A stretch of 64,000 nucleotides of DNA from Squalus acanthias (GCA_030390025.1 CM059432.1:19284001-19348000), one strand, 5' to 3'. Positions 13,146 to 59,880 are shown, counted from the first letter of the stretch. Notes: generated by a model not told the origin, from the sequence alone. Program-made: numbers and translations.

Positions 13146-14115
13146 ATAAAAACAGAAAATGCTGAAAACGCTCAGCAGGTCAGGCAGCATCTGTGGAGAG
13201 AGAAACAGAGTTAATGGGGGTGATTTTGCCAATGGGGGCGTATTGGAGGCGGGACTGCTGCTTGTCGGGTTTCAGTCCCGCCTCCATCGACATCTGGCCA
13301 ACCCATGCTATTTTCCCAGCGGGCTTAGCAGGCCAATTAAGGGAAAGCCGGTGACGGAGAATGTCAACGTATGACGTTTCATCTGTCAAAAATTTTTGAC
13401 AGATGAATTGTCATCATTTGTCAGCTTTGAGAAGCTGTCAAACACTGACATTCTCTGTTGTTTGGTGAGTTCTTGTACTCAAGGCTCACCAAGCCTATTT
13501 CCTGAGCAGAAAGCAGATGGCTGTTGCATCGGAAAAAGCAGCAGCCATTCTGTCATCTCTGCCGTGGAGATGCCGGAGCCTCCGGATCCCCAACGATTGA
13601 AGCCTGTAGGAAGAAACAAAGGTGAGGAAACTTTTTCTAACACTTTTCACTCACCTCACATACTTACCTCTCCACACTTGCACCCATCACTCACCTCCAC
13701 GGTGCACTTTTGGACCCCTCTCATCTCCACAGACTCACTGCTCGCCTCGCTGACCCTGGCGGGGTTTCCCGACGTCGGGAAGCTCGCAACTCTGTTGGAA
13801 AAATGGGGATAATCCTCGTAACTGCCTGTTAACTATCTGTTAACAGGCAGTTAAGTGGCTGTAATCCCCTTCCCGCCTCCAGGAGACGGGACCCGGCACG
13901 GGTCGGGTACCCACCTCCTGGGAAGATGGCACGGAGGCGGGATGGGGGCAGGATGGGTACCCGGCCCCCAGATTCTGCCATTCTCCCACCTCCAAACCCG
14001 CCTCCCCAGAGTTGGCAAAATCACCCCCAATATTTCAGGTTTGTTACCTTTCATCAGGACTGGAAGAAGTTAAAGATTTAACAGTTTATAAGCAAGTACA
14101 GAGCCAGGGAAAAGG
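13146..14115 (-). mobile_element. Penelope terminal repeat with hammerhead core, split by a Harbinger MITE
   Basis: Reverse complement reads CCAGTC CTGATGA A AGGT AACAA ACCT GAAAT ATT [MITE] ATT AACTCTGTTTCTCTCTCCACAGATGCTGCC. Confidence 0.85.
13216..14028. mobile_element. Harbinger MITE (813 bp)
   Basis: Perfect 17-bp TIR GGGGGTGATTTTGCCAA; 3-bp TSD AAT/AAT. Confidence 0.95.
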
Positions 14116-14639
14116 CTGTGAGGGCGTGGGCCGAGGTGTTTTTTTTCATATTAGGCAGGCAGTAATATAATTTGCTATCTTGAATAAATACGGTACAATT
14201 TACTGTAATACAGTTTAATTAATGAAAAGAAGAAATCTAATATCAATTTGCATCTGTGTGAGAGAGAGAGAGAGAGAGCAGGTAATTTTGGAACTATTTA
14301 TTCTCCTAGTCCTCATAATTATTCTGAAAATACATCCAATTGCAGATAATTCTGTAAAAATATAATGTTGGTGAAATGCAAGTAAGAACGTTACCAGTAT
14401 TGGAGGCAGACACTTTCCCTTCAGTGTACTGCTTGGTGCACCAGACAAGCGTGATCCCAGGTACGCTTCCGCACACGCTGCACCCCGGGATTCGTGGGCC
14501 ATTACGCTGCCCTGAGTGCGCAGCGTCAGAGAGCATGTTCGCGAAGGAGGGTCCCCATCAGGTAAGCTCGTATTTTATTTGGGTGCCGGCGGCGTACTCC
14601 GTAGGTACGCCGCCGACCGCAAAATCTGCCCCAATGTTT

Positions 14640-14765
14640 CCACCATTCTCTGAGATGAGATCAGCTAAGTCAGCACGTGCAGATCAGAGATTGAACCTGG
14701 GGCCTTCCTGTCCTGGACGGTTCAGTGGGAGGTGATATATTTCCCAAAGAACCACTGGGGGAGCC
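14640..14765 (-). mobile_element. tRNA-derived SINE head (LF-SINE-like); related pieces near 22850-23130, 28370-28530, 40480-40639 and 47547-47700
   Basis: Minus strand CCCCAGGTTCAATCTCTGATCTG..GCTGACTTAGCTGATCTCA with a B-box-like motif. Confidence 0.55.
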
Positions 14766-16013
14766 CTTCAGTTTAAGAATGGAAAATGATCCACTTAATT
14801 GTTTGGTCATCACTTTGCATAATTATTGGGTGATTGCCTCCTAAATGCCCTTAAGACCAACACAGAACAACATTGCTGTAGGTTGCACAAGCACAATATC
14901 GGCATCGAAATGCAAAGGACATGACACATTGGAAATCAGCTTAAAATAGAAATGACATCAAGCCCCTCAAAATTGGTTGCTTTACAATACAATTGACACA
15001 TTTTACGCTGTGCGTGTTGCTGTCCCAAGTATAAATAAAGTCATTCAAAAATTGATTCACGATAAAAATCAACCCACATTACTATATTCACCATAAAATG
15101 TATTGAATCCACTCCAACATCTATTTCTTTACAAATTGATTGTGACACCTTTCATATTAAATAATAAACGGCAGGCTGGACAAACTCAAATTCTTTTCAG
15201 TCCTAGTTTATTAACTAACATGTTATATACCGAACTGGCACACGTGTAATCAGAATAAATGAGCAAAATTCACGAAAGATTAGTGCCTGCTGATCTAATT
15301 AATTATTCATGCAGTATATTGCCTGAAGCTATGATGCTAAACTAATGTTTGTTTGTTTTTACATATTACCTAATTTATCGCCAAATCATTTATTGCTTTG
15401 TACTGAATTAGGTGAATTATAAATGGGATAACTGAGAAAACTTATTTTAGATTGACATCTAAGATTTTCAAAGTTACGGAACAAGCAAGTCACACTTAGT
15501 GCTATATTGCATTAAAGGAAGATATTAGTGAAAGGTTTATTGTATAATATCTACTCTAAGCAAGGCAGCAGGCAACGCTTATAATGTGCAAATGCGTAAC
15601 GGGGTGAGGTTCCACTTAAAAAGGTCAGACGGTGTTTATCATTTCATTTTACTTTTCATGACTCTTCTGTTCATCAGGGTGAAGGATGTCAGTGATGCAA
15701 AATGGGACACCTTCTATTCCAGACACCTGAAATGATTATCAAGCAATTCTGCATATTAGCCTGGTTAGATGTGAGAAAGCTTCTTTCAGTTCTGCCTGAG
15801 CAATTTGCTTCACATCAATGTGAGGGGTTTTAGTGCCGGGGAATGGAATTCTGACTCCTGGAGGGCAGCCAGCACGCAGAAAACCCCAGAGAGAAGGGGA
15901 GGAGAAACGATCAGCAAGGAAATAAAATGCCTTGGGTCTCTTAAATGTACTAAACTGTTATTTCAAAGACAAAAGAAAGGTCATGTTAAAATGAAAGGAA
16001 AAGTAAATACTTT

Positions 16014-18655
16014 GGGCTGAATTTTTCCGGTGCTCAGGGTGCGGGTTTGGAGGAGGGTCAGCTGTCAAAATCGAAATGATTGACAGCAGGTTGGGAACCC
16101 GCTGTGAACCCGCCTCCATGTAAGTTTCCAGAGTGTCGGGTCTGCGATTTCAGAACAGACCCGACACCAAGCGGCGGGGGAGGGATTTAAGATACTTAAC
16201 TGCTTGTTAAGTGTTTGTTACCTACTATTTTGCCAGCTTTTCTCTATTTTACCACTTTTTTAACAGGGTTCACGCCGTTCGGAGATCATGTCAGGTAAGT
16301 AGGTTGGGTTCTCTATGTCTCCCCATTGCTGTGAATAGGTGACAGCTGCAAAACTGGCATGAAAGCTACCATTTCACGGCTGGACACTTTCCAACGTCAG
16401 AAACTTGAGCCTTCAGTACTTGGCAGACACTTTTGAGCTGTATGCAGTTTGGAAGGCCCCTATTTTATCGGCAGTGAGAGGGCAGGTTTGGAGGCGGGTC
16501 AAAGCTTAAAATTGTTTTGATTGACGGCAGCCTCCAAACAATTTTCCCAAGTGTCGGGTCCCCGATTTGCGCATGGACCCAATACCTAACAGCGGGAAGA
16601 GTATTAAAGCCACTTACCTGCCTGTTAACAGGTAGTTGAGAGTAGTTGACGGGCTATTTTTGAATTTTGTCACTTCTGCCTCAGGCTTCCCGACATCCGG
16701 ACACCGCGTCAGGTAAGTGTTGCGTGTTGTGAGTCTGCTGTAATGTTTCTTCATTGATGACAGCTGCAGAAGTGGTGTGAAGGATCCAATGGTGCACTGG
16801 TGAGTCTCAGAGGTAAGGAAATGTTGGGAAAATCATTTTTAATGCATTTACACATTTCTTTAGGTTACAAGTTTTGAAAACGATGTCTAGTGCCACCTCA
16901 TTGGGAGAACCTCTCTCACCTGTGACAGATTGCTCCTGTCACCTCACCTGCAGCTGCCATCTGTTCTAGCCTAAGGAGGGAGTCATTGGAGAGCCTAAGT
17001 GCAAGAGCTCACCTTTGTACAGTGATTGTCAGTGTTTGCAGCACCTCAATGCTGTCAAACACTGAGAAATGAGCTAACAAAAAAAATTGTGCGTGGTCCC
17101 TTTAAGAAAACCAGCTGATGACGCGTCATCAAATGACATCATCCGACCGGCTTCCTCTTAATTGGCCAGCAAGCCTGCAGGGCGGGCTTAACAAGGTCAA
17201 TCAACGTAAAATCACGTCCGTGGGCCGGATGCAGTTGGGGGCGGGACTGCAACCTGGAAACCACCTGACCCGCTCCCAACCCGCATCCATTGACAAAATC
17301 GCGGCCGAAGTGTTTGGTGTAAACTCTCTATCCAGTGTCACCTCATTGGAACAACCTCTCTCACCATTGACAGATCGCTTCTGTCATCTCAACTTCAGCT
17401 GCCATCTATTCCAGCAACATCGCTACCCTTGAAAAAATCTCACCTTGGTCCTCTGAATCCCTCCACGATCAGTCCCAACACCAGCATCACCAGTCACACC
17501 AACATCACTAACAACATCACCAACCTTCTCCGCAATCACCTGATGCTGCACAGGACACAGGGGCATCAGCACTCGACCACATTGCTGCCTGGGAGGCCAG
17601 CGATGGCATCACCATGGCCAGATTTACTGCACTTGATGCTGTACACCCTGGCTGCCACATGATGCGCCAGGTTAACACCACCCCATGCTATCACCATAAA
17701 GCATCCCTACAATGACCAAGCCATTCCTTTCACAATCATCACCATTGCGGGGATAGCATTATGTCTCACCATTCACTGCAACTCACTAAGCCACTTCCAA
17801 AGGTGAGCACAGATCTGTACAATAAGGCAAAGTGTTGAAAATAAAGATTTCAATGTTTGACAACACATTAGCAGAAAATTTACATGAACATTGCATAAAA
17901 CACCCAAGTGCCTACCCTTCTGTGTTGTTAGTTGGTATGATTGCACTAGGATGAGGGTGAGTGTGAGGGGTGGCTAGTGAGATGGGGGAGTGATAATGTA
18001 GATAGAGAGGGATGGGTGGAGGTGCAAGGTAAGTTGGTGTGAGTAAGGATGTGTAGGAGTAGGATAAGGAAGGCAGAGTTATGGGGATGTGATGAGTGGC
18101 ACAGCAGGATAAGGTTGAGCGTGGCTTTGCAGTAACATTTCGTGATCTACTGAGATCATTGAAAGGTTTGCACCACTGAAGCCTGGTCCTCCTGACGACA
18201 TCCCTGCTTTTGTCCTCCTGTGCAATGTGCAACCAGCCTGCGTTGGTGTCCTGGGGAGGTCTCTTCCTCCCAATGAAGGGAAGAGAACCTCCCTGCATGC
18301 TGTGACTTCCTCCATAAGATTATGGAGGGAGTCATGTGAGAGCCTGGGTGCAGCTGTGCACCTTTGTGCAGTGCTTGTCAGTGTTTGCAGCACCTCAATG
18401 CTGTAGAACACTGACAGCACAACTATCAAAATAAATGCGGCCATGGTCCCTTTAAGGAAACCGGCTGATGACACGTCATCAAATGACGTCGTCAGACCCG
18501 CTTCCTTTTAATTGGCCGGGAACTCCGCAGGTTCGGCTTAACAAGCCCTATAACAGAAAATCCTTTTTACAGAGCGGCTGCAGCCGGGAGCGTGACCGGA
18601 ACCCGCCAACCACCTCTCCCGCCGCGATCCCGCCTCCGCTGGTGAAATCACGGCC
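16014..18655. mobile_element. Internally deleted Harbinger carrying the Q/H-rich transposase leader (+, about 17420-17620) and Myb exon 1 (-, about 18135-18360)
   Basis: TIRs GGGCTGAATTTT / AAATCACGGCC, TSD TTT/TTT; AAPRLSHDSL..EVLFP and GWLHIAQE..QWCKPFNDL. Confidence 0.88.
16455..17306. mobile_element. Harbinger MITE nested in the 16014-18655 element
   Basis: TIRs GGCCCCTATTTT / AAAATCGCGGCC, TSD GAA/GAA; inverted homologue of 24737-25611 and 27331-28184. Confidence 0.9.
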
Positions 18656-19560: not shown

Positions 19561-19830
19561 TAGGACAGCCATAGTACCACAAAGACCATTGTATGAGAAA
19601 TGATTGACATTGAGAAAAATGAGGGTTGTATGAAGAAAACTTCATGGGCCCTGGAAATCTATTTGTAATGAGGGCAAGTACAAACATAACTTTTGCACCC
19701 ATTTCAGAATTAATCATAATCCCTACCCCTGCCAGCACAGGTGCTGAGCAACTGGGTCCACAACTATAGATTGTAGAGGGAGATTACTGATGGAGGTTGA
19801 GATTATAATTTAGGTGCCATTATCATTGCA

Positions 19831-24644: not shown

Positions 24645-24736
24645 ATTGAGGCTGTTGCCAGCCTCATTCACGTCGATTTTGGCAGGATAAAATAGACGCC
24701 ATAGAGTTTGACAAAAGGTAATTTACCTGGAACATT

Positions 24737-25611
24737 GGCCGCGATTTTCTCGATTGATGCGGCTTGGGAGCGGGTCAGGTGGCTTCCGGGTTCCAGTCCT
24801 GCCCCCAACTACATCCGGCCCACAGACGTGATTTTACGTCAATTGGCCTTGTTAAGCCCGCCCTGCGGGCTTGCTGGCCAATTAAGACAAAGTCGGTCAG
24901 ATGACGTCATTTGATGATGTGTCATCTGCCGGTTTTCTTAAAGGGACCACGCACAATTTTTCTTTGACAGCTCATTTCTCAGTGTTTGACAGCATTGAGG
25001 TGCTGCAAACACTGACAATCACTGTACAAAGGTGAGCTCTTGCACCCAGGCTCTCCAGTGACTCCCTCCTTAGGCTAGAACAGATGGCAGCTGCAGGTGA
25101 GGTTACAGAAGCGATCTGTCACTGGTGAGAGAGGTTCTCCCAAAGAGGTGGGACTAGACATACAAATCAAAAATTGTTCCCTACAGAAAAGTCTAAATGC
25201 ATTAAAAATGAATTTCCCAACAGTTTCTTACCTCTGAAACTCACCAGTGCACCATTGGATTCTTCACACCACTTCTGCAGCTGTCATCAATGCAGATACA
25301 TTACAGCAGACTCACAACACACCGCACTTACCTGGCATGGTGTCCGGGCATCGGAAAGCCAGAAGTAGAAGTGTCAAAATTGAAAAAGAGCCTGTTAACT
25401 GCCTATTAACAACCTTTAACATGAGTTAAGTGGCTATAATTCTCTTCCCGCCGCTAGGTGTCAGGTCCACGCACAAATCGGGGACCCGACACTTGGGAAG
25501 ATTGATTGGAGGTGGGTTGACAGCGGGTTTCCTGCCCGCTGTCAATCTTTGTGATTTTGTCAGAGCTCCCGCGTCCAAACCCGCCCCCTGAGCGCCGGCA
25601 AAATTCTGGCC
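24737..25611. mobile_element. Harbinger MITE (875 bp) inserted in a Penelope terminal repeat
   Basis: TIRs GGCCGCGATTTT / AAAATTCTGGCC; flanks ATT/ACT; right flank continues AACTCTGTTTCTCTCTCCGCAGATGC. Confidence 0.92.
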
Positions 25612-26427
25612 ACTAACTCTGTTTCTCTCTCCGCAGATGCGACCTGACCTGCGGAGTAGTTCCAGCATTTTCTGTTTTTATACTAAGTATTACTAACTGT
25701 TGGGATAGACATACTTAGGCTGGGGAGCAGTGAGGCTGGGTAAGTGGAAAAAAGGAAAAAACTGAAATAATAGAAGGAAATTTCATTGTTAAAAAAAAAT
25801 TGCAGCTTTAAATCTGCTTTCCAATGGAAGTAAAACCACCCCTTGCAAACTTTTGAAGTCTAGTGGGAGTTTTTAAACTTTGAATACTATTTCCCCATTG
25901 CCATTAATGGAGCAATCCAGTTCAACAGTACATCTTCTGATCCTTTTTTTTCTTTGTTCAAGAGGCTCATGCTCTAAGGGGTACCATTATCAATTTGCTG
26001 CTGGTTGCATTTAACAGGCAGCTTCTCAAGTGTTTATTTTTCCATTTAATTCTTTTTTAAGTGCAGATTTCAGACATAAATTGCCGCAATCCCAATCTGA
26101 ATTCAGTTTACTGTCTCTGATTCACAGTGAGCCTGGGGACAAGTTGCAAGACTGCTGTGTTACAGCCGCATTAAAGTGAGGTTGTGCTTGGCTGACACTG
26201 GCTGCAATCATAAGCGTGTGAAAAAATAATTACTGTGAGCGGCAGATTAAAAATAAGCTTGTTAGTTAAAGTTTTATGCCATTGTAAGAGTACTGAAGTG
26301 CAACCCTCTGGTAATGTCACTCCACATAAAGGTAGTGTGTTATCCAGTGAACAATTCAGAAGATTTTGTTGTGCTACCTGGGGTCTTATTCTATATTACA
26401 AAAGCAAAATACTGCGGATGCGCGAAA

Positions 26428-27330: not shown

Positions 27331-28184
27331 GGCCGCGATTTTTCCGGTCGATGCGGCTTGGGGGCGGGACAGCTTCCTTCCGGTTTCCAGTCCCACCCCC
27401 AACGACGTCCGATGCACAGACGCGATTTTACGTCAATTGGCCTTGTTAAGCCCACCCTGCGGGCTTGCCGGCCAATTAAGAGAAAGCCGGTGTCAGATGA
27501 CGTCAGTTGATGATGCGTCATCTGCTGGTTTTCTTTTTTGACAGTTGATTTTTCAGTGTTTGACAGCATTGAGACACTGCAAACACTGACAATCACTGTA
27601 CAAAGGTGAGCCCTTGAACCCAGGCCCTCCAGTGACTCCCTCCTTAGGCTAGAATAGATGGCAGCTGCAGGTGAGGTTACAGAAGTGATCTGTCACTGGT
27701 GAGAGAGGTTCTCCCAATGAGGTGGGCCTACACAAACAGTTCAAACCTTGTCACCTACAGAAAAGTCTAAATACATTAAAAATGATTTTCCCAACATTTT
27801 CTTACCTCTGAAACTCACCAGTGCACCATTGGATCCTTCACACCACTTCTGCAGCTGTCATCAATGCAGAAACATTACAGTAGACCCACAGCATGCCACA
27901 CTTACCTGGCGTGGTGTCTGGACATCGGGAAGCCTGCAGTAGAAGTGTCAAAATTGCAAAAAGCCTCTTAACTGCCTGTTAACTACCTGTTAAAAGGCAG
28001 TTAAATGGCTATAATCCTCTTCCCACCGCTAGGTGTCGGGTCCCTGCGCAAATCGGGGACCCGACACCTGGGAAGATTGTCTGGAGGCGGGTTGACAGCA
28101 GGTTTCCGACCCGCTGTCAATCTGCGATTTTGTCGGATGTCCCGCCTCCAAACCCGCCACCTGAGCGCTAGCAAAATTCCGGCC
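27331..28184. mobile_element. Harbinger MITE (854 bp), direct paralogue of 24737-25611
   Basis: TIRs GGCCGCGATTTT / AAAATTCCGGCC; flanks TAA/TTA. Confidence 0.92.
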
Positions 28185-32689: not shown

Positions 32690-33361
32690 TACATTCTCAG
32701 CAGAGGGTTGTGCTCACAGGGAGTGCAGGTCGGAAAAGTGAGGCGGCAATGTTATAGTCCTATTTCCAACACTTTGAGGGCAGCTACTCCACTGGCAGTG
32801 TGGAATTAGGCATAGAAACAAATAAATCTTCCTGTGTTCTTCAGCTGTGAGGCTGTGGATTTCACTTCCAGGATCAGTAGTTGAAGCAGAAACTATGGAT
32901 GCAAATTTTATTCCTCTGAGGGGGCAGGTTTGGAGGCGGGTCTGTTGCGAAAATCGGAGAAATTGGGGGCGGGCTGCGAACCCGCCTCCATCCCGCCTCC
33001 ACGCAACTTTCGGAAGTATTGGGTCAGCAGCTCCTAAACTGACCCGACACCAAACGGCGGGACAGGTTGTTAAGCCAGTCATTAACTGGCAGGATAATCC
33101 TATTTTAAACGGCTGATGAGATTTTTGAGGTTTTTCAACATGTTGCCCACCTTCATTAAAAGACGTCTGTTGAATCGAGTCGGCTTAAAAGCGGTCCTGC
33201 AAACTCTCATTCTTTCACATGCTACAACTTAGTGCTTTGAGGTTGGGAGACATTTAGCAGCTCTACTAATCTTCTGAGTGTGACCTCCTTGGAATACTCT
33301 CTGGCCACTTTGAATGAGCACACACAACCTCCATTCCTCCACTGAGACATATACCAGCGGG

Positions 33362-34555
33362 ATGGGAACCATTTATATCCTCTCATCCTGGTCATCAGAT
33401 TCAGATGAACAGCAGCCGCGACAGCAGCGCAACCAGGTATAGCAGCAGCACCAACAGCAGGAGCGCCAACCTTCTCCTCAGCCACCTGATGATGCACAGG
33501 GCAGAGGGTCATCAGCGCCGGCACCTCGCCGCAGGAGATACCCCCAACACTGGGTTTACAGGCAGAGGATGAGTTTCCTCAACATGAGTGAGCAGCAGTG
33601 CCGAAGGAGGCTGAGACTTTCGCGAGACGTCATCGCTGACATCTGCACAATGTTGCACCAGCACCTGGAGCCCAGAGGAACGTGTAGACACTCCTTACCA
33701 GTGGCGGTCAAAGTCAGCACCGTACTCAACTTATTTGCTTCGGGCTCCTTCGAGGGATCATCTGCAGACATCAGCGGCAACTCCCAGTCGGCCACACACA
33801 CCTGCATCACGCAGGTTACCGATGCCCTCTTTGCAAAGGTGCATAATTACATCCATTTCTCTATGGATGAAGCAAGTTTAACTTTGCGTGTGCTTGGCTT
33901 TGCAAATATGACAGGCTTCCCAAGGGTGCAGGGCATCGTAGACTGCACACATGTGGCCATTAGGGCACCCCATCATAACCCAGCTGTATTTGTCAACCGC
34001 AAGGGCTTCCACTCACTTCACATCCAGCTGGTTGTAACTACAGGAACATCATCACACATGTTTGCACCAAGTACCCTGGTAGTTGCCATGACTCCTTGAT
34101 CCTGCGCCAGTCTACTGTGCTTCAGCTCTTCAATTCGCCAGCCCAACTTTCCAGATGGCTATTTGGCGACGAGGGCTATCCCCTGAAAAAGTGGCTCATG
34201 ACACCGATGAGGAGGCCACCAGTAGCATCATAGAGCAAACATTCGGCTTTCTCCAAAAGCGATTCCGATGCCTCGACAGATCTGCTGGAGCCCTGCAGAA
34301 TGCACCAGCCACGGTGTTCAGAATCATCGTCGTCTGCGGTGCCCTGCACAACATCGCACAGCAGTGTGGCTTAGCGTTCCCTGAGGAACAAGTGGCACAG
34401 CGCAGAGCATCCTCAAAGAGGAGGAGGACGAGGAGGATGAGGACTAAGACGAGGAGGCACGCCTTGGGGGGCCGGATGTGGCCAAAGCAGCAGCCCTCGA
34501 GCACATTGCTGGCCGTCACACAAGGGATGCACTCATCCATGCCAGATTCGCGTAA
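33362..34555 (+). pseudogene. Harbinger DDE transposase (HARBI1-like, DDE_Tnp_4), disrupted
   Basis: [44 protein letters not shown]; one TAG in the Q-rich leader, frameshifts and a short deletion before the catalytic E. Confidence 0.93.
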
Positions 34556-34855
34556 GCTTACACTTCAGCCACAGGTGGCTAGCATATGGCTATGAATGTG
34601 TGGACGACTTTCTTAAAACACCACACATCATCTCTCCAATAAACAGTGCTTTCCTATCACTCTCAGCATCATCATTACAAATGCAAGTCGTCCTGAGGCC
34701 TCAACGTGTAACTTCCATTTCCCAGAACACATAGGCCAGACCTTCAACTGTTTGCCATAACTTTTGTTTACTACATTCACAAAATTATGACAATGCAAAA
34801 TATTACAGAGAATCAAATACAACTGAATAAAACATCCAAATGACTCCCCTTGTAA

Positions 34856-36771
34856 CTACTTGTGTTTTATCTTCCTCTTACTTGTGCTTCTACGTGGTGC
34901 TTCCCCTGTGGCTTCAGCAGATGTAGAGGCACCTTGCTGACTTTGATGCGGCGCCTGCTTAGACGCCTTTGGCGGGTGTCCTCTGGGTTTGGGAGCCTGG
35001 GAGGGCTCTGCAACAGTCTGCTCTTCCTGTGGCTGTGCAGGGGCTGAAACGGCCATTTCAGTTGGGTGTGCAATGTGGGTCTGTGAGCGAAGGCTCTGCA
35101 GTGGCATGGTCGTGTGAGCGCTTGGAGAGGAGCCCACACATCCTTGTTGCCTGCCACCAACATCCCTCTCATGGGTCAGCCGCAATTCAGTGCTGGCAAG
35201 TGGCTGGAGAGCACCTTGCTGCAGATCGGGGGGGGCGGGGGGCGCCATGAGGACCCATATCTGTACTAACAGTCCTCATAACAAGGAAGTCCATGAAGCT
35301 CTGGTGTCTCTCCAAAATATATGCCCATCTGTCCTCCATAGCTGACAATCTATTTTGAAGAGTCACCATGTTTTCGTTAGCCTGGCGACTTATGCCCTCC
35401 ATGGTGGTTGCCACCCTCTCCATGGCAGAACGATCATGCGTCATTGCCTCCACAAAGGCAGTGCTCATGTTAGAGATGGACTCCTCCATTCTCTCTACAC
35501 TCGCTGTTACCCTGGATGCAAACCCTCTCACAGACTCCTGCACTTGTTCCTGGAGTTCCAGCACCGCTCTCTTTCTGGATGGCCCCAGAGGCACAGCGTC
35601 TGCATGCAGCTGAGCAGAGCTAGGAGAGTCCTGCGACCTCCGACGAGGACTCTCCACTGCTGTCGCTGTCTCCACTATCTGCTGATGCTCACTTGTGAGC
35701 TGTGATACACCAGGTGACAACACTACTCTAAATCGCGAGGGCCCCGCCGAGGTGTGCGTATCTGCGCTGGTGCTAGGTGGGTTGAGTAATGGTGACGCTG
35801 CTCCCTCAGAGGCTGCAGGCTCCTCTGAGGTGTCGTCTGGCTATTCCTCCTGGACAGTGGGGAGGGGGGCGCTCGATGGTCCTGTGGGAGAGTAAAGGCA
35901 TGAATTTGACATCTGATTTTGATGCAGCAGACACATCCTTTGGTGCAGATGATACAAAGCGAATCTCTATGAACATCATATGCCATTGTAGTCAATCATT
36001 AAATGTAAATGAGTGGGATCAAACTCTATTCTGTCACCAGCTTTGTCTAGTGTGCCCATCTCTCCATCGCCCACTTCCAGATCTTTGTCACCTCTGACGA
36101 TTTCGTGCGCAGCCTCCTCAGTACTTGTCAAAGATGCAAGGGTTGGTATGCCTCCTCCTGCTTGTGCTTTCTCCCTCTTATTGTGGGCTACCTTTTCCTG
36201 CAAGGAGGGACACAAGCGGAGTTTCAACCACAGTGATGGAGTGAGTGTGAAGAATCCCTAACATAGAAGCTTAGAGGGAGACCAAAATGGAGTGAGGTGC
36301 CAAGAGGAAGCTAGCTCCCTGTGCATTGTTAGTTGTTGTCAATGCATAACAGTGAGAGCGAGTCTGAGGGGTGCATAGGCAGGATGCTGAAGTGATTCAG
36401 TACACAGAAAGAGATGGATTGGTAAGGGTGCAAGGGAAGTAAGGGTAAGGTGGGATGTGGAGGAGCAGGCTTACAAAGCAGAGTGCTGATGATAAGAGAA
36501 GGGAAGCAGATTGAAGGTAAATGTGATGTGATACTCACTTTTGATAATCGCAGAAGATCATTAAACCGTTTCCGGCACTGGGTCCAGGTGTGTGAACAAA
36601 CGGACCTTGCGCTGACCTCCTCAGCAATGTGCAGCCAGGCTGCCTTGGTTTGCTGAGGAGGCTTCCTCCAGCCATCCGCAGGGAACAGAATCTCCCTCTA
36701 ATTCCCTCCACAAGAGCTTGGAGAGACTCCTCATTGAACCGTGGAGCAGCCTTCGGTTTCGATGAACTCAT
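34856..36771 (-). pseudogene. Harbinger Myb/SANT-like protein, 3 exons (36771-36539, 36197-36038, 35881-34856), disrupted
   Basis: KAAPRFNEESLQALVEGI, AAWLHIAEEVS..WTQCRKRFNDL, coiled-coil-like region, basic C-terminus PRRSTSKRKIKHK; GT-AG introns. Confidence 0.9.
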
Positions 36772-37539
36772 TGTGGTCTTGCCAATTCCAGATTCCAGCA
36801 GAATCAATAAATTCAAGGCTGAGGCTGCATGGGGCCCTTAAAAACATCCGCTCTAATGACGTCATCAGAGGCGACTAACAGACCCGATCCCAGTCATTGG
36901 ACCGGCCAACGCGCACCACGCAACTTAAGGGGCCAATTAAACAAAAATCTCAGCTGGGGATCGGATGCAGCCGGCAGCAGGTCTGGACCCTGCCCACCAC
37001 GTAACCCAACTCCAAGCCGCCTGCTGAAATAAAATCGCGGCCTAAGGCTACATTCAAGAATAGATTAGATAGGTTGATGAAGGAAAAGGGGATAAAGGGA
37101 TATGGGAACAGAGTGCCTAAATGTGATTGGAACTATTTTCTCATGTGGAGGGTAAACACCGACACCGTGTGATTGGGCCAAATGGCCTGTTGTTCGTGTT
37201 GTAACTTCTATATATTTCTATGAGTAGATAGGTTAGTTCTTTTGATTAGTCTACTGTTTGTTTTCAGATCTTGGTTCTAGTGTAACAGATCAGTCTCTTC
37301 TGGCATGTAAGTGGCACTGCCATGCAGCGTGGCAAGATGTGGCTTGTTTCTTTTCAGTGATTGCTCTGATTGATGATTCCCTGATCTTTGAAGTTGCTCG
37401 GTGAAGCAGTGATGCTCTCAACAGTGGGACAGGAGGATCTTCGCACCTCCAATCTAGCGTACCGTACAGCTCATCATGACTGTGCTGGCTCCGAGACAGA
37501 CCAATTCCATTACCCCTAACCGTCCCCTATACCCTTTCT

Positions 37540-39387: not shown

Positions 39388-39421
<34 letters not shown>

Positions 39422-39459: not shown

Positions 39460-39493
<34 letters not shown>

Positions 39494-40964: not shown

Positions 40965-41717
40965 GGGCTGGATTTTCAATGATCTGTGGAGTCGGGTTTG
41001 GAGGCGTGTGGGGGGGTTAAAGTTGCAGATTCGGGGGTCCCGACCCCATCCCGACTCCATTCCGCCTCCACGCAATTTTGACAAAATCGGTCGCGGGGTT
41101 CCCAACTCCGTCCCGCCTCCGAAAGGCGGGAGAGGCCATTAAAGCCCTTAACAAGCCCTAAATTGGCTCTGTAATGCCATTTTGAAACGTTTTAGCTAGT
41201 TTAACCCTTTTCCGACGTGAAGTACGCCTGATGTGAAACACGCCAGTGAAACCTGGCGGGAGCACAAGTGGATAGCTGACTATCAGCTGCAGGTCCACCA
41301 TTACAACGGAGATGTGATGAAGGTAGTAGTTGTCTTGTGATGAAGGTAGTAGTAGTATTAGGTCTGAAAGTCGCCTCTGATGCTACTGCATTGAATGTCT
41401 TCAGAGACTGCCTGGGAGGACATAGTTGCAAACTCTCTCTCTCTCTCTCTGAGATGCTGCTCATTTTGCATCCAGGTCCTCTCACAGCAAAGGCCAGGCA
41501 ATCTCTGAGACCAGGCAGTCTCTGACCTGCAATGATGACATCATCAGAGGCGACTTTCAGACTGAAACCACTAATTGGTTCATGGGTTCCCACATGCTGG
41601 AACTCAATTGCCCTATTAAGTGAAAATTGCAATCTCCCACATCCAATTGCAGGCGGGTGGATAACACGAAATGCGGATGACACGACCCCAACCCGCCCCA
41701 GTATCAAAATCCAGCCC
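40965..41717. mobile_element. Harbinger MITE (753 bp) inside a Myb exon
   Basis: Perfect TIR GGGCTGGATTTT; TSD ATA/ATA; removal restores RTQRD-ILFPSD. Confidence 0.93.
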
Positions 41718-52950: not shown

Positions 52951-53901
52951 GTCATAGAGTCATAGTCATAGAGTCATAACGGCACAGAAGGAGGCCATTC
53001 GGCCCAACGAGTCCATGCCAGCTCTCTGTAGAGCAATCCAGTCAGTCCCATTCCCCCGCTCTATCCCCGTAGCCCTGCATGTTTATTTCCTTCAAGTGCC
53101 TATCCAGTCTCTCCTTGAAAACATTGAGTGTCTCCGCTTCCACCACTTCCATCGGCAGCGAGTTCCCGGTCCTCACCACTCGCTGCGTAAAAAGTTTTTC
53201 CTCACATTCCCCCTGTATCTCTTGCCCAAAACCTTAAGTCTGTGTCTCCTAGTCCTTGTACCATCAACTTGTGGGAACAGCCTTTCCCCGTCTAGCCTAT
53301 CCAAACCTGTCATAATCTTGTACACCTCTATCAAATCACCCCTCAACCTCCTTTGCTCTAATGAAAACAAATCCAGCTTCTCCAACCTGTCCTTGTAGCT
53401 AAGATCCCCCATCCCCGGAACCATTCTGGTAAATCTCCTCTGCACCCTCTCAAGTGCCTTCACATCCTTCCTAAAGTGTGGTGACCAGAACTAGACGCAA
53501 TACTCCAGTTGTGGCCTAACCAACGCTTTATAAAGGTTCAGCATAACTTCTCTACTTTTGTACTCAATACCTCTATTTATGAAGCCCAAGATCCCATGTG
53601 CTTTGCTAACCACTCTCTCAATATGTCCCGCCACCGTCAGGGACTTATGCACATTAACTCCCAGGTTCCTCTGTCCCTGCACACTCTTTAAAACTGTGCC
53701 ATTAAGTGTATCTTGCCTCTCCCTGTTCCTACTGCCAAAATGCATCACCTCACACTTCTCTGTATTAAATTCCATCTGGCACTTGTCTGCCCATTCTGCT
53801 AGCCTTTCTATGTCCTGTTGCAGTCGATTGGTATCATTCTCACTGTTTGCCACACCCCCAAGTTTGGTGTCATCGGCAAATTTAGAAATTCTACTCTGTA
53901 G
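52951..53901 (-). mobile_element. 5'-truncated CR1 LINE
   Basis: ISKFADDTKLGG...LVRPQLEYCV; (CATAGAGT)n tail. Confidence 0.93.
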
Positions 53902-54656
53902 TCCTCCCTGGAAAGTGGTTGTGAGCACCACAGCAAAGATACAGCATGCAGGCAGTGACATTTCCAGGTTAAATTGGGTTTAAGCCTCATTTTGGGATTC
54001 ATCTTTTGAGAGGTAATTATCTGGTTTGACCCGAATATCTGAAGGCTTAAGAACGAACCATTTCCGTCTGCAGTGACTATCGGACTGTCACCATAACTCA
54101 CCTGAGATTCCCTGCTCGAATACGTGTACAAATTGAGCAATGCATCTGATTACCACAGTACTGTCGACAGCCAATAAATCCTTAAATGGGCTACCAGTTA
54201 GAGCAAGGAAAGCAATTTAGTGTAGAGAAATGTTCTTCCCTAACTCTGACACACATATATATGAAAAAAGAGCTTCTAAAGAAAAGTGTCAGTTTTCATT
54301 GCTCTCCATGCAAACAGTTTGTATATTTTCATTATAGCACAATTGCAATTTCATGTTTAAGGATCCTGGGTTTCAAAGCATTCTGTGTGATGGGCACTCA
54401 ATTTGTCAATCCCATTCATGCAGTCAGGATTTTACCATTGTACTTTATTAAAAAAAAGTGGCGCTTCTATTCAGTGCTTCCTTGTGTTAGTATCTGATTG
54501 AAATTCATTGATGTAACAGGGACAGAGTATAATCATGTGGAAGGAAAGGATGTTATATCTTTCTGCAGTATATTAGGAACACTTGGGTTAAGCAAGTGGA
54601 AAAAAGGACATACCTGAAGGAAATGTGGCCGAAAAAAATCATTTCAAAACAACTTG

Positions 54657-55548: not shown

Positions 55549-55681
55549 TTGACTTTTAAATGGGGCCAGGCCTATGCTTCAAAAGGTAAATTGACATTTG
55601 TGCACTTCTAGGTAAAGGAATTTGATCCACTCATAATTTGGTTGACTGATCATGCTTGGGGAAAGGATGGGGCTGTTTCAG

Positions 55682-56055: not shown

Positions 56056-56149
56056 ACACGACACAATCCTCTGACTTAAATAAAATTCATAATTTTCTTC
56101 CCTGTATTGATAAATGCTCATATTGGAGAGTGGAGATAAATAAAGCCAA

Positions 56150-56835
56150 GTGATTTACTTGTACTTCTTCTAACTTCTATACCGTATTCGCTGCTCATAA
56201 TGTGGTCTCCTCGACATTGGGGAGACCAAACGCAGATTGGGTGACCGCTTTGTGGAACACCTCCGTTCAGTCTGTAAGGGTGACACTGAGCTTCCGGTCG
56301 CCTGTCACTTTAATTCTCCGCTCCACTCCCACTCTGACCTCTCTGTCCTCGGCCTCTTACACTGTTCCAACAAAGCTCAACGTAAGCTCGAGGGACAGCA
56401 CCTCATCTTTCGATTAGGCACTTTACAGCCTTCTGGACTTAACATCGAGTTCAACAATTTCAGACCATAACCTCGGCCCCTATTTTTTTTTTCTCTCACA
56501 TGGCAGCTGTTGATAATTCTGCCATTGCCATTTACATACCGTCTACAGTCATCTTTTGTTTCTTAACTTGTCCCATTACCATCTCCTTTTGCCTTGCACC
56601 ATCATCCCTTTTGTCTTTTAATCTCTCCTGCCTTCCATCCTATCACAGACCTTCCCTTTGTTCTTTCATTCCCTCCCCCCTTTCCCTGCCCCTACACTTG
56701 CTTAAAAATCTGTTACATCTCTAACTTTTTCCAGTTCTGTCGAAGGGTCATCGACCCGAAACGTTAACTCGGTTTCTCTCTCCACAGATGCTGCCTGACC
56801 TGCTGAGTATCTCCAGCATTTTCTGTTTTTATTTC
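56150..56835 (+). mobile_element. Penelope-like element 3' part: GIY-YIG endonuclease remnant (to 56470) and terminal repeat
   Basis: IRCS.CGLLDIGETKRRLGDRFVEH..PVACHFN..RKLEGQHLIFRLGTLQPSGLN. Confidence 0.9.
56731..56772 (+). ncRNA. Minimal type I hammerhead ribozyme motif (core A6 mutated in this copy)
   Basis: AGTT CTGTCGA A GGGTC ATC GACCC GAAAC GTT AACT: stem I AGTT/AACT, stem II 5 bp, palindromic AACGTT in place of stem III. Confidence 0.75.
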
Positions 56836-56845
56836 TGCTCAAATC

Positions 56846-56975
56846 CAATGTTCCCTTTCAGCACCCTGGACCTCCCGTTCAGCCGGCTCACCAGTTTTTA
56901 CATGCAAAAACCTCGCATGTGTGGATTTTTGAATGGGCCGCGCGGCCCCTTTTAAAAAAATTAGAGGGAACATTG
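56846..56975. mobile_element. Tiny hAT MITE (130 bp)
   Basis: TIR CAATGTTCCCT / AGGGAACATTG; 8-bp TSD CTCAAATC / CTCAAATG. Confidence 0.85.
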
Positions 56976-57351: not shown

Positions 57352-58833
57352 TAAGAACATAAGAACATAAGAAATAGGAGCAGGAGTAGACCAATCGGCC
57401 CCTCGAGCCTGCTCCGCCATTCAATGAGATCATGGCTGATCTGATCCAACCTCAACTCTAAAGAACACAAGAAGTCGGAGCAGGACCAGGCCACTCGGCC
57501 CCTGGGCCCGCTCCGCCACCCACAGGGCCTTGACCGATCCGAACTCAAACTCATGTCCAATTTCCAGCCCGCTCCCCGTAACCCCTGATTCCCTTTACTT
57601 CTAGGAAACGGTCTATTTCTGTTTTAAATTTATTTAATGAAGTAGCTTCCACAGCTTCCTGGGGTAGCAAATTCCACAGACACACTACCCTCTGAGTGAA
57701 AAAGTTTCTCCTCATCTCAGTTTTGAAAGAGCAGCCCCTTATTCTAAGATTATGTCCCCTAGTTCTTGTTTCACCCATCATTGGGAACATCCTCACCGCG
57801 TCCACCCGATCAAGCCCCTTCACAATCTTATATGTTTCAATAAGATCGCCTCTCATTCTTCTGAACTCCAATGAGTAGAGTCCCAATCTACTCAACCTCT
57901 CCTCGTATGTCCAACCCCTCATCCCCGGAATTAACCGAGTGAACCTTCTTTGTACTGCCTCGAGAGCAAGTATGTCTTTTCTTAAGTATGGACACCAAAA
58001 CTGTATGCAGTACTCCAGGTGCGGTCTCACCAATACCCTATACAACTGCAGCAATATCTCCCTGTTTTTATATTCTATCCCCCTAGCAATAAAAGCCAAC
58101 ATTCCATTGGCTTTCTTGATCACCTGCTGCACCTGCATACTATTTTTTGATTTTCTTGCACCAAGACCCCCAGATCCCTTTGTACTGCAGTACTTTCCAG
58201 TTTCTCGCCATTAAGATAATAACTTGATCTCTGATTTTTCCTGCCAAAGTGCATAACCTCACATTTTCCAATATTGTATTGCATCTGCCAAATCTCTGCC
58301 CACTCACCCAGCCTGTCTATATCCCCTTGTAGGTTTTTTATGTCCTCCTCACTCTCTACTTTCCCTCCCATCTTTGTATCATCTGCAAACTTTGATATGT
58401 TACACTCGGTCCCCTCCTCCAAATCATTAATATAGATTGTAAAGAGTTGGGGACCCAGCACAGACCCCTGCGGAACACCACTGGCTACTGGTTGCCAGTC
58501 CGAGAATGAACCATTTATCCCAACTCTCTGCTTCCTGTTAGATAACCAATCCTCCACCCATGCCAGAATATTACCCCCAATCCAGTGATTTTTTATCTTG
58601 AGTAATAATCTTTTATGTGGCAACTTGTCGAATGCCTTCTGGAAGTCTAAATACACTACATCCACTGGTTCCCCTTTATCCACCCTGTACGTTATGTCCT
58701 CAAAGAACTCGAGCAAATTTGTCAGACATGACTTCCCCTTCATAAAGCCATGCTGACTTTGTCCTATTAAATTATGTTTATCTAAATGTTCCGTTACTGT
58801 CTCCTTAATAATAGACTCCAAAATTTTACCCAC
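57352..58833 (-). mobile_element. 5'-truncated CR1 LINE with duplicated 3' UTR module
   Basis: RT ORFs 58120-58833 and 57551-58138 (one frameshift); (CATAAGAA)n tail. Confidence 0.96.
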
Positions 58834-59139
58834 CTGGTTTGTCCTGTGGCTTTTGCTATCCTAGTTCACAAAAAAAAAACATCATTGTTAGCATTCACGT
58901 TACATTCACTATTGATTTTATACTATTATTTTAACGGAGCGCAAGGTATAGAAAGGAAGAGATCGTTTATGTTCTTTCTCCAATCTAACCAGGCAAAACA
59001 CAATAATTAAACTACTAGTGACGTAGGGGCGCTTTTAACCCTACTCGCTCAGCAGAAACCTGGCAGGCGGGCAGTTAAATTCGCCTTGGCTAGTATCTGT
59101 CTGAAAGCCGCCTTGATCACAACATCTGCAATTTTAGCA

Positions 59140-59315
59140 CAATAGCAAACTACCACGGATGCTGGAAATCTGAAATAACAACAGGAAATGCTGGAGACAC
59201 TCAGCAGGTCAGGCTGCCTCCCCTCCTCCCTTTTCCTGCCCCTACACTTGCTTAAAAATCTGTTACATCGCTCCCTTTTTCCAGTTCTGACGAAGGGTCT
59301 CAGACCTGAAACCTT
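59140..59315. mobile_element. Penelope terminal repeat pieces in inverted arrangement, with an intact hammerhead core at 59281-59315
   Basis: 59150-59217 is the reverse complement of the repeat's distal end; then CCAGTT CTGACGA A GGGTC TCA GACCT GAAAC CTT. Confidence 0.82.
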
Positions 59316-59880
59316 GGCCACGATTTTGCCGGCGCTCAGAGGGCGGGTTTGGAGGCGGGTCCGGAGGTAAATCCAAGATGTTTGAAGGCGGGTTGCGAGC
59401 CCGCCGCGAACCCACCGCCACACGACCTTCCAAGATGTCGGGTCTGCGACTCCTGATCAGACCCGACACCAAGCGGCAGGTGAGGCAGTTAAGGTAGTTA
59501 ATAGCTCCTGTTTAATCCTATTTTGATAGGGATTTTCAATTTTGCAACATTTTCAGCGCGTTCCCCTGTGTTCCAGGAACACGGCAGCTGATTTGAGTCG
59601 GGTATTCCAACAAGCTGAATAGTTCACAGCTGCAAGTGTAGCATTAAAGCTAACCTGCCACTTTAGTTGAATTTCAAAAGCCTGTACTTTCTGATTGCAG
59701 GATGTTGAAGACATTGTTCAGGTGTTTTGAGGTTGTATGTGTATGTTGTGAGATCTATATACACTGTGACCTCCTTAGAATAACCTCTCTCCACTTTGAC
59801 TGAGCTCTTAGAGAACATTTCATCTTCAAGTGACATTTTCACCAGCACCCGATCACCCCCTTCCCAGTCACCCCCTGCCC
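59316..59880 (+). mobile_element. Harbinger transposase-side terminus, truncated
   Basis: TIR GGCCACGATTTT; colinear with 32897-33350; second end not found. Confidence 0.8.

What the first reader, a model, noticed from the sequence alone, without database searches (positions are those of the whole stretch)
13146..59330. Three independent Harbinger insertions at the cleavage triplet of a Penelope hammerhead ribozyme
Seen: five copies of one Penelope terminal repeat (about 5365, 13146-14115 on minus, 24705-25680, 56731, 59281). Three are interrupted at the same position, directly after GAAAC-NTT: 13216-14028 (TSD ATT on minus), 24737-25611 (ATT/ACT) and 59316 onward (CTT; far end missing). The inserts differ in TIR, length and orientation, and their relatives (3574, 27331) sit in other flanks, so the events look independent. 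Established: Penelope-like elements carry minimal hammerheads, and Harbinger transposases have extended target preferences. Inference: the duplicated triplet is the ribozyme N-U-H triplet, and insertion separates the core from the 3' strand of stem I. This would be a DNA transposon using an abundant retroelement ribozyme as landing pad and disabling it.
Basis: partly seen in the sequence, partly recalled or inferred. Interest (0 to 1): 0.88.

Follow-up and report, generated by a model that had tools for sequence, protein, structure and literature searches.

The report
Harbinger transposons hit Penelope hammerhead site
In this shark-sized genome, cut-and-paste Harbinger transposons have landed again and again at one exact spot, the cleavage triplet of a small hammerhead ribozyme motif in the tail of a very abundant Penelope-like retroelement, most likely because that spot happens to spell the transposon's preferred DNA target.

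Summary
Five Penelope-like (PLE) tails lie in the window. Three are split after the same GAAAC-NTT by three different PIF/Harbinger elements (813 bp, 875 bp, and a 532-bp 5' piece of a long element), in two orientations, with 3-bp duplications.

The genome shows the same pattern. 105 left and 58 right strict junctions exist, and the reversed-pattern controls gave 0. In anchored scans, 34 of 37 and 26 of 31 insertions sit at exactly this position. Filled copies are independent events: they differ in size and orientation, and on a tree they are interspersed with copies lying elsewhere.

The repeat fits the published minimal hammerhead of PLEs, and a GIY-YIG-like ORF lies upstream of it. Rfam finds nothing, and cleavage is untested.

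The best explanation is DNA target preference. The family favours CWGA-N-WC | NNN, and the PLE site CTGAAAC|GTT|AACTCTG matches one half fully and the outer part of the other. A crude model predicts about 250-410x enrichment; about 1,160x is observed. Other repeats are hit just as often or more. Only about 3% of the family's ends lie here, and well under 1% of PLE tails are filled (by these strict patterns). I found no evidence that ribozyme function attracts the transposon. This is a new member of a known kind, of moderate interest.

The parts
56149..56835 (+). 5'-truncated Penelope-like element (PLE) 3' end with an uninterrupted site; the last 156 bp (56680-56835) is the 'terminal repeat' of the finding
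   Evidence: Aligns over about 700 bp at 90% to genome copies L101 and L103 and over about 320-350 bp to L010, L011, L013, L014 and L020.
56731..56769 (+). Minimal hammerhead motif. Helix I 5' strand CCAGUU is 56731-56736. The core box is 56737-56743 (CUGUCGA here; the genome consensus is CUGAYGA, so A6 is mutated in this copy). The extra A is 56744. Helix II GGGUC-AUC-GACCC is 56745-56757. GAAA is 56758-56761. C15.2 is 56762. G16.2-U16.1-U17 is 56763-56765. Helix I 3' strand AACU is 56766-56769.
   Evidence: Read. The features were compared with Cervera & De la Pena 2014 (PMC4209133; parts 1-2 of 4 of the whole text read). No Rfam match. The helix II hairpin appears in the MFE fold.
56763..56765 (+). 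Empty target triplet GTT (the putative N-U-H cleavage triplet)
5367..5456 (+). 5'-truncated PLE tail with an empty site (GTT 5384-5386); GAAAC is decayed to TAATC
14029..14112 (-). Left PLE half of copy 1, ending in the duplicated triplet ATT (14029-14031)
13216..14028 (-). Harbinger MITE, 813 bp, with GGGGGTGATTTTGCC-type inverted ends; the 5'-type end faces the PLE left half
   Evidence: It is 79% identical to 3580-4389.
13145..13215 (-). Right PLE half of copy 1, starting with the duplicated ATT (13213-13215)
24700..24736 (+). Short, decayed left PLE half of copy 2, ending in ATT (24734-24736)
   Evidence: read by eye against the consensus.
24737..25611 (+). Harbinger MITE, 875 bp, with GGCCGCGATTTT... 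ends, in the opposite orientation to the other two inserts
25612..25681 (+). Right PLE half of copy 2, starting with ACT (25612-25614; a decayed duplicate)
59230..59315 (+). Left PLE half of copy 3, ending in CTT (59313-59315)
   Evidence: also listed among the genome junctions.
59316..59847 (+). 5' end (532 bp) of a long, autonomous-type Harbinger; the rest and the right PLE half are not in the window
   Evidence: 85% identical to genome locus L002 over 1-524, and 72-75% to L019 and L020.
59172..59220 (-). Inverted fragment of a PLE tail (positions 108-156) abutting copy 3; it has no hammerhead site
32897..37042 (+). Autonomous-type two-gene Harbinger of the same family. The transposase pieces are at 33443-34595 (+) and a Myb/SANT-like ORF at 36329-36697 (-). 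The flanks are CAGAAAC|TAT and TAA.
   Evidence: DDE_Tnp_4 scored E 9.5e-6 (25.8 bits, cut-off 24.8) and E 2.5e-4 (21.1 bits, below the cut-off). Myb_DNA-bind_5 scored E 1.9e-5 (24.9 bits, cut-off 21.7). The ends were read, and end homology to the inserts is.
3574..4395 (.). Related MITE in an unrelated flank (flanks TTA / TAA)
27331..28184 (.). Related MITE in an unrelated flank (flanks TAA / TTA)
16455..17306 (.). Related MITE copy (88% to insert 2 over 775 bp) in an unrelated flank. Further fragments lie at about 10876-10994, 16019-16220, 18321-18655 and 40965-41152.

Best explanation
A PIF/Harbinger family (two-gene autonomous elements plus their MITEs) has inserted many times, independently, into the 3' tail of an abundant Penelope-like retroelement (PLE). 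Each insertion duplicates the triplet GTT that follows GAAAC.

The cause is the transposase's own extended DNA target preference. Outside the PLE, the family prefers CWGA-N-(A/T)C immediately before a 3-bp duplication, ideally on both strands (roughly CWGAMAC-NNN-GTKTCWG). The PLE site reads CTGAAAC-GTT-AACTCTG. It has a full left half-site, and the outer CAGA of the right half-site on the other strand.

Four of the key left-half bases (G, A, A, C at -8, -7, -5, -4) are the hammerhead's G12, A13, A15.1 and C15.2. The ribozyme core therefore happens to spell a half-site, and the roughly 90,000 or more copies make it a frequent pad.

Steps shown here: recurrence, independence, positional precision, the target motif, and the PLE and Harbinger identities. 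Steps inferred: that sequence preference alone sets the rate, that the motif cleaves after GUU, and that insertion abolishes cleavage (it removes the 3' strand of helix I).
For: Recurrence (counts by strict patterns):
- GAAAYNTT + GGCCNNGATTTTNCC: 105 matches, reversed-pattern control 0.
- 19 of the first 20 listed junctions lie in a PLE hammerhead context.
- GTTAAN + the same end: 58 matches, control 0, of which I read 51 as PLE-type.
- All ends of this type: 5,351.
- Empty sites: 90,223 for a 13-mer and 57,490 for a 20-mer.
- A uniform model expects 0.13 ends at these sites; about 151 are seen.

Position:
- With a left anchor and a 0-30 nt gap, 34 of 37 ends lie at the same spacing. Three lie 2 or 6 nt further on, and none lies upstream.
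- With a right anchor, 26 of 31 are exact, 4 are ambiguous because of indels, and 1 lies 6 nt away.

Independence:
- Among the 19 sampled PLE junctions, both orientations occur (12 and 7).
- Insert sizes are 405, about 870 and about 1,535-1,750 bp, plus long autonomous-type elements.
- On a tree of 14 copies of about 870 bp, the 4 hammerhead-site copies need 4 label changes, at least 3 of them forced by well-supported branches.
- Those 4 copies are no closer to each other (mean identity 0.867) than to the other copies (0.876).

Target motif, from 94 non-PLE half-sites: A at -7 in 71, A at -5 in 60, C at -4 in 70. The resulting matrix ranks the triplet as the best position in the 156-bp repeat (3.14, next best 3.11).

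Feature model:
- CWGA plus WC gives a likelihood ratio of 71.5; CWGA alone gives 5.7. The product is about 410.
- Larger genome counts (245 and 357 of about 2,390 ends), corrected by hand for PLE rows, give about 65 x 4.4, or about 290.
- The same model predicts 16:1 for the triplet over the neighbouring GAAAC|AGA site. Observed ratios are 26:1 and 34:1.

Other recurrent pads exist in other repeats, each with 7 of 100 listed flanks.

An extended 9-15 bp insertion preference is a stated hallmark of PIF/Harbinger (PMC2836001; passages seen).
Against: - Observed use is about 1,160 times uniform. That is 3-5 times above the crude sequence model.
- It is about 18 times above the average half-site with the same or better matrix score.
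- An A at -6, as in GAAAC, is an under-used variant: about 9 of 87 non-PLE rows.
- The right half-site lacks the most conserved inner bases.
- Left junctions outnumber right junctions about 2:1, and I could not explain this.
- All models rest on small samples, on hand counts, and on one strict end pattern that catches only part of the family.
Confidence: 0.78

Rival explanations
1. Sequence preference plus an extra attractor. Something beyond the core target motif raises use of this site. One candidate is the element's Myb-like DNA-binding protein recognising the GTTAAC hexamer that spans the site; the same hexamer is repeated 3-4 times at about 10-11 bp spacing inside the elements. Another candidate is a local DNA or chromatin property of PLE tails.
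For: - There is a residual 3-5-fold excess over the feature model.
- GTTAAC is about 7 times more frequent in the first 400 bp of 80 elements than in the window (60/31,600 against 16/63,995).
- It is clustered about 175-205 bp from one end.
- ORF1/Myb-like proteins bind Harbinger ends and recruit the transposase (PMC2836001; passages).
Against: - GTTAA flanks outside the PLE are at about chance level: 7 of 58, with about 5 expected.
- No GTTAAC occurs in the 45-nt flanks of 80 non-PLE insertions (0/3,200 positions).
- The residual is within the error of the crude model.
- PLE density within 2 kb of ordinary insertions is not raised: 2 site-spanning copies in 178 kb.
Confidence: 0.12
2. Ribozyme-directed or adaptive homing. 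The Harbinger family targets the hammerhead because it is a ribozyme (through RNA, a structure, or selection for a safe haven or for disabling a competitor).
For: - The insertion point coincides exactly with the predicted cleavage site.
- The conserved core supplies the half-site.
Against: - Only about 3% of strict ends lie here, and other repeats are hit as often.
- Sampled targets are truncated or decayed tails.
- Occupancy is about 0.1-0.2% of sites by strict patterns.
- Cut-and-paste transposases act on DNA, and no RNA-guided step is known for this superfamily (my own knowledge).
- The motif learnt outside the PLE already picks the site.
Confidence: 0.05
3. One or a few composite PLE+MITE copies were amplified by retrotransposition or segmental duplication, so the shared position is inherited.
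For: L010 and L011, 295 kb apart, are near-identical composites.
Against: - Both orientations, at least five size classes, and different PLE truncation points occur among the 19 sampled junctions.
- Hammerhead-site copies are scattered on the MITE tree.
- The three window inserts belong to three subfamilies.
Confidence: 0.03

Closest known systems
Extended target-site preference of PIF/Harbinger elements: maize PIF and rice mPing/Ping/Pong at 9 bp, '9-15 bp' for the superfamily (PMC2836001, passages seen); zebrafish Harbinger3_DR with a roughly 15-17-bp palindromic target (recalled, not seen in a call)
   Same: - 3-bp duplication.
- GGCC-type inverted ends.
- Two genes (DDE_Tnp_4 transposase and a Myb/SANT-like protein).
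- A partly palindromic preference that reaches beyond the duplication, and so causes repeated hits at one position of any repeat that carries the motif.
   Different: Here the preferred bases lie 4-10 nt outside the duplication (CWGA-N-WC), and the duplicated triplet itself is nearly free. The pad is the hammerhead core of a retroelement. I found no report of that pad with the terms.
Minimal hammerhead ribozymes in the terminal repeats of metazoan Penelope-like elements (Cervera & De la Pena 2014, PMC4209133)
   Same: - Core boxes CUGAYGA and GAAA.
[quoted passage not shown]
- A helix II of 5 bp.
- A 4-bp helix I.
- No helix III, but a palindromic A-C-G-U at 15.1-16.1.
- Tens of thousands of mostly truncated copies, some in inverted pairs.
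   Different: - The 10.1-11.1 pair is mostly A-U or G.U in this family, not the usual G-C.
- Helix II is shorter than the 7-8 bp described for Schistosoma.
- No activity data exist.
Site-specific insertion of one transposable element into another repeat. Examples: Tx1-clade LINEs, Pokey in rDNA, Dada in small-RNA genes (recalled). This scan's own notes e1-7852016 and e1-7790025 on the same genome are also relevant.
   Same: An abundant repeat serves as a recurrent landing site at one nucleotide position.
   Different: Those elements are largely confined to their target. This family puts only a few per cent of its copies here and uses several other pads.

Membership tests
Minimal hammerhead of PLEs (min-HHR) | Catalytic boxes CUGANGA and GAAA in type I order | tested here: met
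   The genome consensus is TTCTGAYGA...GAAAC in the 37 listed copies (this box was the required search anchor there), and GACCTGAAAC in the 100 listed of 57,490. The window copy at 56737-56743 has CUGUCGA, with A6 mutated.
Minimal hammerhead of PLEs (min-HHR) | [quoted passage not shown] | tested here: met
   The extra A precedes RGGTC...GACCY. The pair is A-U, G.U or G-C depending on the copy. The paper stresses G-C, so this is a partial departure.
Minimal hammerhead of PLEs (min-HHR) | No helix III; palindromic 15.2-16.2, allowing a dimer; N-U-H triplet | tested here: met
   GAAA-CG-UU: A15.1 C15.2 G16.2 U16.1 is the palindrome ACGU, and H17 = U.
Minimal hammerhead of PLEs (min-HHR) | Helix I of 4-5 bp formed with the sequence after the cleavage site | tested here: met
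   AGUU (56733-56736) pairs with AACU (56766-56769). This was read by eye. It is not the MFE fold of the monomer (z -1.08), as expected for a dimer-type motif.
Minimal hammerhead of PLEs (min-HHR) | Covariation between families; self-cleavage | not testable with these tools
   Only one young family was sampled. No RNA run kept as raw reads was listed, and no bench work is possible.
Rfam hammerhead families | Match to a curated covariance model | tested here: not met
   0 matches at gathering score over the window. No hammerhead family matched at E up to 10 on 56650-56850. My understanding is that the Rfam models include helix III, which this motif lacks.
Penelope-like element (EN+) | Reverse transcriptase followed by a C-terminal GIY-YIG endonuclease, upstream of the repeat | tested here: met
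   In L101, ORFs reading ...NLVYCIRCS / CSLLYIGETKRRLGDRFAEH... lie about 0.4-1 kb upstream of the tail. GIY-YIG scores only E 0.12 in that ORF. Relatives at 59-72% identity carry RVT_1 plus GIY-YIG in one protein, with GIY-YIG below Pfam's cut-off (E 0.0013-0.008). No full-length copy was recovered.
Penelope-like element (EN+) | Variable 5' truncation with a constant 3' end; inverted pairs | tested here: met
   Tails of 157 bp (L102), about 700 bp (window) and at least 1,010 bp (L101/L103) share one 3' end. Inverted pairs 35-60 bp apart appear in the listing and in L002, L009, L016 and L019.
PIF/Harbinger | 3-bp target-site duplication and short inverted ends | tested here: met
   Identical triplets flank 12 of the 24 sampled elements for which a right-end candidate was called (of 80 sampled), and insert 1 in the window. 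The ends are GGCCGCGATTTTGCC-like.
PIF/Harbinger | DDE_Tnp_4 transposase plus a separate Myb/SANT-like ORF | tested here: met
   The window element at 32897-37042 has both. Both ORFs are broken or partial. The ends of the three inserts are homologous to this element and to long genome copies.
PIF/Harbinger | Insertion preference extending beyond the duplication | tested here: met
   From 94 non-PLE half-sites: A at -7 in 71, A at -5 in 60, C at -4 in 70. CWGA at -10..-7 occurs in 357 of about 2,390 ends, against 1.1% of background positions.

The most novel reading that the evidence does not exclude
The hammerhead core is a trap for its own element. The PLE must keep GAAAC, the palindromic CG and helix I for RNA processing, so it cannot mutate away from a Harbinger half-site. 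The Harbinger family, perhaps helped by its Myb-like protein recognising the GTTAAC that spans the site, gains a neutral, self-renewing safe haven, and any hit on an active PLE copy would cut the ribozyme from helix I. This would be a conflict between a DNA transposon and a retroelement, fought at a catalytic RNA motif.
Probability: 0.1. Interest if true: 0.7.

Novelty: new member of a known kind. Interest (0 to 1): 0.36.

Why it matters
This is a clean, quantified example of one mobile element shaping where another accumulates. A 17-bp stretch that includes invariant ribozyme bases attracts roughly a thousand times more Harbinger insertions than an average site.

It also gives a natural data set of filled and empty alleles of a minimal hammerhead. 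That could be used to test whether these motifs cleave and whether helix I is needed. It gives a target motif for a vertebrate Harbinger family that could be tested in a transposition assay.

It does not by itself reveal a new mechanism.

Tried and rejected
- **Rfam.** Searches at gathering score and at E up to 10 found no hammerhead. This is read as a limit of the models, not as absence.
- **RT between copies 4 and 5.** The reverse transcriptase at 57551-58860 (minus), between PLE copies 4 and 5, looked like a candidate PLE ORF. Its C-terminal region and tail read to me as LINE-like (by eye, no classifier), and it lies on the other strand.
- **Alignment.** A MAFFT alignment of whole and half copies misplaced the left halves. 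I used the BLAST coordinates instead.
- **Position-weight matrix.** A plain matrix gave a likelihood ratio of only about 23 for the site and scored the neighbouring site similarly. It averages good and poor half-sites, so I replaced it with a two-feature model.
- **GTTAAC as an attractor.** This was tested and the flank counts and is not supported.
- **Regional co-enrichment.** PLE and MITE co-enrichment is not seen: 2 site-spanning PLE copies in 178 kb around ordinary insertions.
- **RNA evidence.** No RNA holder was listed. All runs are kept as contigs, which cannot show RNA ends, so no reads were laid.
- **MFE fold.** The fold of the monomer shows helix II but not the hammerhead, and is not better than shuffles.
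- **Full-length PLE.** The smaller fetch gave only truncated copies.

Full report
**What is in the window**

The 156-bp repeat at 56680-56835 recurs at 5367-5456. It recurs in two pieces at 14112-14033 / 13214-13145 (minus strand) and at about 24700-24736 / 25614-25681. It recurs as a left half at 59230-59315. An inverted tail fragment lies at 59220-59172. A 28-mer of the repeat matches 4 times against 0 in shuffles.

The three interrupted copies all break at repeat positions 84-86, the GTT of GAAAC-GTT.
- Insert 1 is 13216-14028, flanked by ATT/ATT.
- Insert 2 is 24737-25611, flanked by ATT/ACT.
- Insert 3 starts at 59316 after CTT.

The inserts are related but distinct. Insert 1 is 79% identical to the copy at 3580-4389. 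Insert 2 is 86-88% identical to 27332-28184 and 16531-17305. Insert 3 is the first 532 bp of a long element, 85% identical to genome locus L002. Insert 2 lies in the opposite orientation to the other two.

**What the inserts are**

Their ends are GGCCGCGATTTTGCC-like inverted repeats. Identical 3-bp duplications flank 12 of the 24 sampled genome copies for which a right-end candidate was called (of 80 sampled).

A 4.1-kb relative in the window (32897-37042) carries pieces of a DDE_Tnp_4 transposase. It also carries, on the other strand, a Myb_DNA-bind_5 ORF. This is the two-gene PIF/Harbinger architecture. The window holds 11 copies or fragments of the family. By strict end counts (2 in the window against 5,351 in 3.7 Gb), that is some 20-40 times the genome mean.

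**What the repeat is**

It is the 3' end of a longer retroelement.
- The window copy aligns with genome copies over about 700 bp.
- Other copies share 157 bp or at least 1,010 bp with the same 3' end.
- In L101, a GIY-YIG-like ORF (NLVYC...LYIGET...R..EH) lies upstream of the tail.
- Pfam sees that ORF only weakly (E 0.12).
- Its relatives at 59-72% identity join RVT_1 and GIY-YIG in one protein, with GIY-YIG below the curated cut-off.

This is the architecture of endonuclease-bearing Penelope-like elements.

**The hammerhead motif**

The motif CUGAYGA-A-RGGUC-AUC-GACCY-GAAA-CG-UU|AACU has the features that Cervera and De la Pena list for the minimal hammerheads of metazoan PLEs (PMC4209133; parts 1-2 of 4 of the whole text read):
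- an extra nucleotide after position 9;
- no helix III, but a palindromic 15.2-16.2;
- a 4-5-bp helix I;
- massive copy number, and inverted pairs.

Three caveats apply. Rfam gives no match. The monomer fold is unremarkable. The window's intact copy has T at the A6 position. Cleavage is untested.

**Genome-wide test**

Pattern counts over the 3.71-Gb assembly gave the following.

| Pattern | Count | Reversed-pattern control |
|---|---|---|
| Left junction: GAAAYNTT + strict end | 105 | 0 |
| Right junction: GTTAAN + strict end | 58 (51 PLE-type by my reading) | 0 |
| All ends of that strict type | 5,351 | 2,770 |
| Empty sites, 13-mer | 90,223 | 1,254 |
| Empty sites, 20-mer | 57,490 | 0 |

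The first 100 listed ends all read as end variants, despite the high control. A uniform model expects 0.13 ends at these sites. About 151 are seen, roughly 1,160-fold more.

I fetched the first 20 listed left junctions; 19 are in a PLE hammerhead context.

Anchored scans with a free 0-30-nt gap show where insertions fall within the hammerhead region.
- Left anchor: 34 of 37 at the triplet, 3 displaced by 2 or 6 nt, none upstream.
- Right anchor: 26 of 31 exact, 4 ambiguous, 1 at a site 6 nt away.

**Independence**

The 19 sampled junctions carry inserts of 405, about 870 and about 1,535-1,750 bp, plus long autonomous-type elements. They occur in both orientations (12 and 7), in PLE copies with different truncation points. 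One pair (L010/L011) is a duplicate.

On a maximum-likelihood tree of 14 copies of about 870 bp, the four that sit in hammerhead sites are scattered among ten that sit elsewhere. They need 4 label changes, at least 3 forced by well-supported branches. They are no more alike than any other pair. Amplification of one composite is rejected.

**Why this site**

I fetched 80 unselected ends from the listing and built the target profile of non-PLE insertions. Among 94 half-sites, A at -7 occurs in 71, A at -5 in 60 and C at -4 in 70, with C/G enrichment at -10/-8. Verified sites often have one very good and one poor half.

The PLE site CTGAAAC|GTT|AACTCTG has a full left half. On the other strand it has the outer CAGA. 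The matrix ranks the triplet first in the repeat.

Estimates of the expected enrichment are as follows.
- A two-feature model gives likelihood ratios of 71.5 and 5.7, so about 410-fold.
- Larger genome counts (245 and 357 of about 2,390 ends), after my hand removal of PLE rows, give about 290-fold.
- The model also predicts 16:1 for the triplet over the neighbouring GAAAC|AGA site. The observed ratios are 26:1 and 34:1.

Sequence preference thus explains most of the roughly 1,160-fold enrichment. A factor of 3-5 remains, which is within the error of these crude estimates but is not zero.

Extended preference of 9-15 bp is a known hallmark of the superfamily (PMC2836001; passages).

**Limits of the 'ribozyme as landing pad' reading**

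- About 3% of strict ends lie here.
- In the 100 flanks, two other repeated targets each account for 7 flanks...GCAGACTC-TTT-GTGTTCTCC... and ...GACAGACAC-AAA-GTATTTGTT... Both are near-perfect palindromic matches. The PLE accounts for 1.
- By strict patterns, about 0.1-0.2% of PLE sites are filled.
- Filled copies are older than empty ones. The CpG in GAAACGTT is intact in 43 of 100 listed filled junctions against 81 of 100 listed empty sites; these are my hand counts.
- The window's 3 of 5 filled copies fits its locally very high Harbinger density.
- GTTAAC, which spans the site and is repeated inside the elements, does not attract insertions outside the PLE.

**Novelty**

Searches of the held library found no report of Harbinger insertions at PLE hammerheads. 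The searches were: hammerhead ribozyme + Penelope-like; Harbinger + target site + palindromic + transposase + Myb-like; Penelope-like + Harbinger + nested + hammerhead. For these I saw only the listings, plus the two papers named above.

Earlier notes of this scan on the same genome had already described the PLE hammerheads, abundant Harbingers, a Harbinger re-using one satellite position, and a LINE that targets PLE tails. None described this junction.

**Verdict**

This is a real, strongly non-random nested-insertion hot spot. It is best read as a new example of Harbinger target specificity. Its one notable feature is that invariant ribozyme bases form the half-site.

Noticed in passing
window 32897-37042: Autonomous-type two-gene Harbinger (DDE_Tnp_4 pieces on the plus strand, a Myb_DNA-bind_5 ORF on the minus strand), with flanks CAGAAAC|TAT and TAA. 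Both genes look broken.
   Followed up: partly
whole window: There are eleven Harbinger copies or fragments in 64 kb, some 20-40 times the genome mean by strict end counts. This is a local cluster around the autonomous-type copy. Local hopping is possible but untested.
   Followed up: partly
genome loci L080, L043, L030, L034 (pad A); L094, L040, L056, L078, L081 (pad B): Two other repeated targets are hit at one position by the same family...GCAGACTC-TTT-GTGTTCTCCTCACAGCT and ...GAAGACAGACAC-AAA-GTATTTGTTTAAT. Each accounts for 7 of the 100 flanks listed. The repeats are unidentified.
   Followed up: partly
genome-wide: Left junctions (about 100 PLE-type) outnumber right junctions (about 51) two to one. 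A simple model of two unlike ends plus orientation bias does not fit.
   Followed up: partly
window 13820-13860 (minus), 25390-25440, 27965-28010, 3755-3800; 80 genome copies: Arrays of 3-4 GTTAAC-type motifs about 10-11 bp apart lie about 175-205 bp from one end of the MITEs. They are plausible binding sites of the Myb-like protein.
   Followed up: partly
genome listing; loci L002, L009, L016, L019; window 59172-59315: PLE tails often stand in inverted pairs with their hammerhead sites 35-60 bp apart, or abut an inverted fragment. The 2014 paper describes this for other animals.
   Followed up: no
genome C2:85732754 and C23:21777434: Two filled copies read CTGMAAC-TCT-end. This is as if the GTTAAC between the two AAC repeats had been lost before insertion, which would create a near-perfect palindromic target.
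   Followed up: no
genome C1:254008966 and C1:254304234 (L010, L011): Near-identical PLE+MITE composites lie 295 kb apart. This is probably a segmental duplication.
   Followed up: no
window 57551-58860 (-), 60292-63082 (-), 43278-45472 (-), 19814-20665 (+), 53491-53979 (-): LINE copies with RVT_1, two of them also with endonuclease/exonuclease/phosphatase domains. None is the PLE's own reverse transcriptase.
   Followed up: partly
window 3571-3573/4396-4398 and 27328-27330/28185-28187: Two MITEs are flanked by TTA...TAA and TAA...TTA, which are inverted and not direct triplets. This may be decay of a TWA duplication, or the ends may be one triplet longer than assumed.
   Followed up: no
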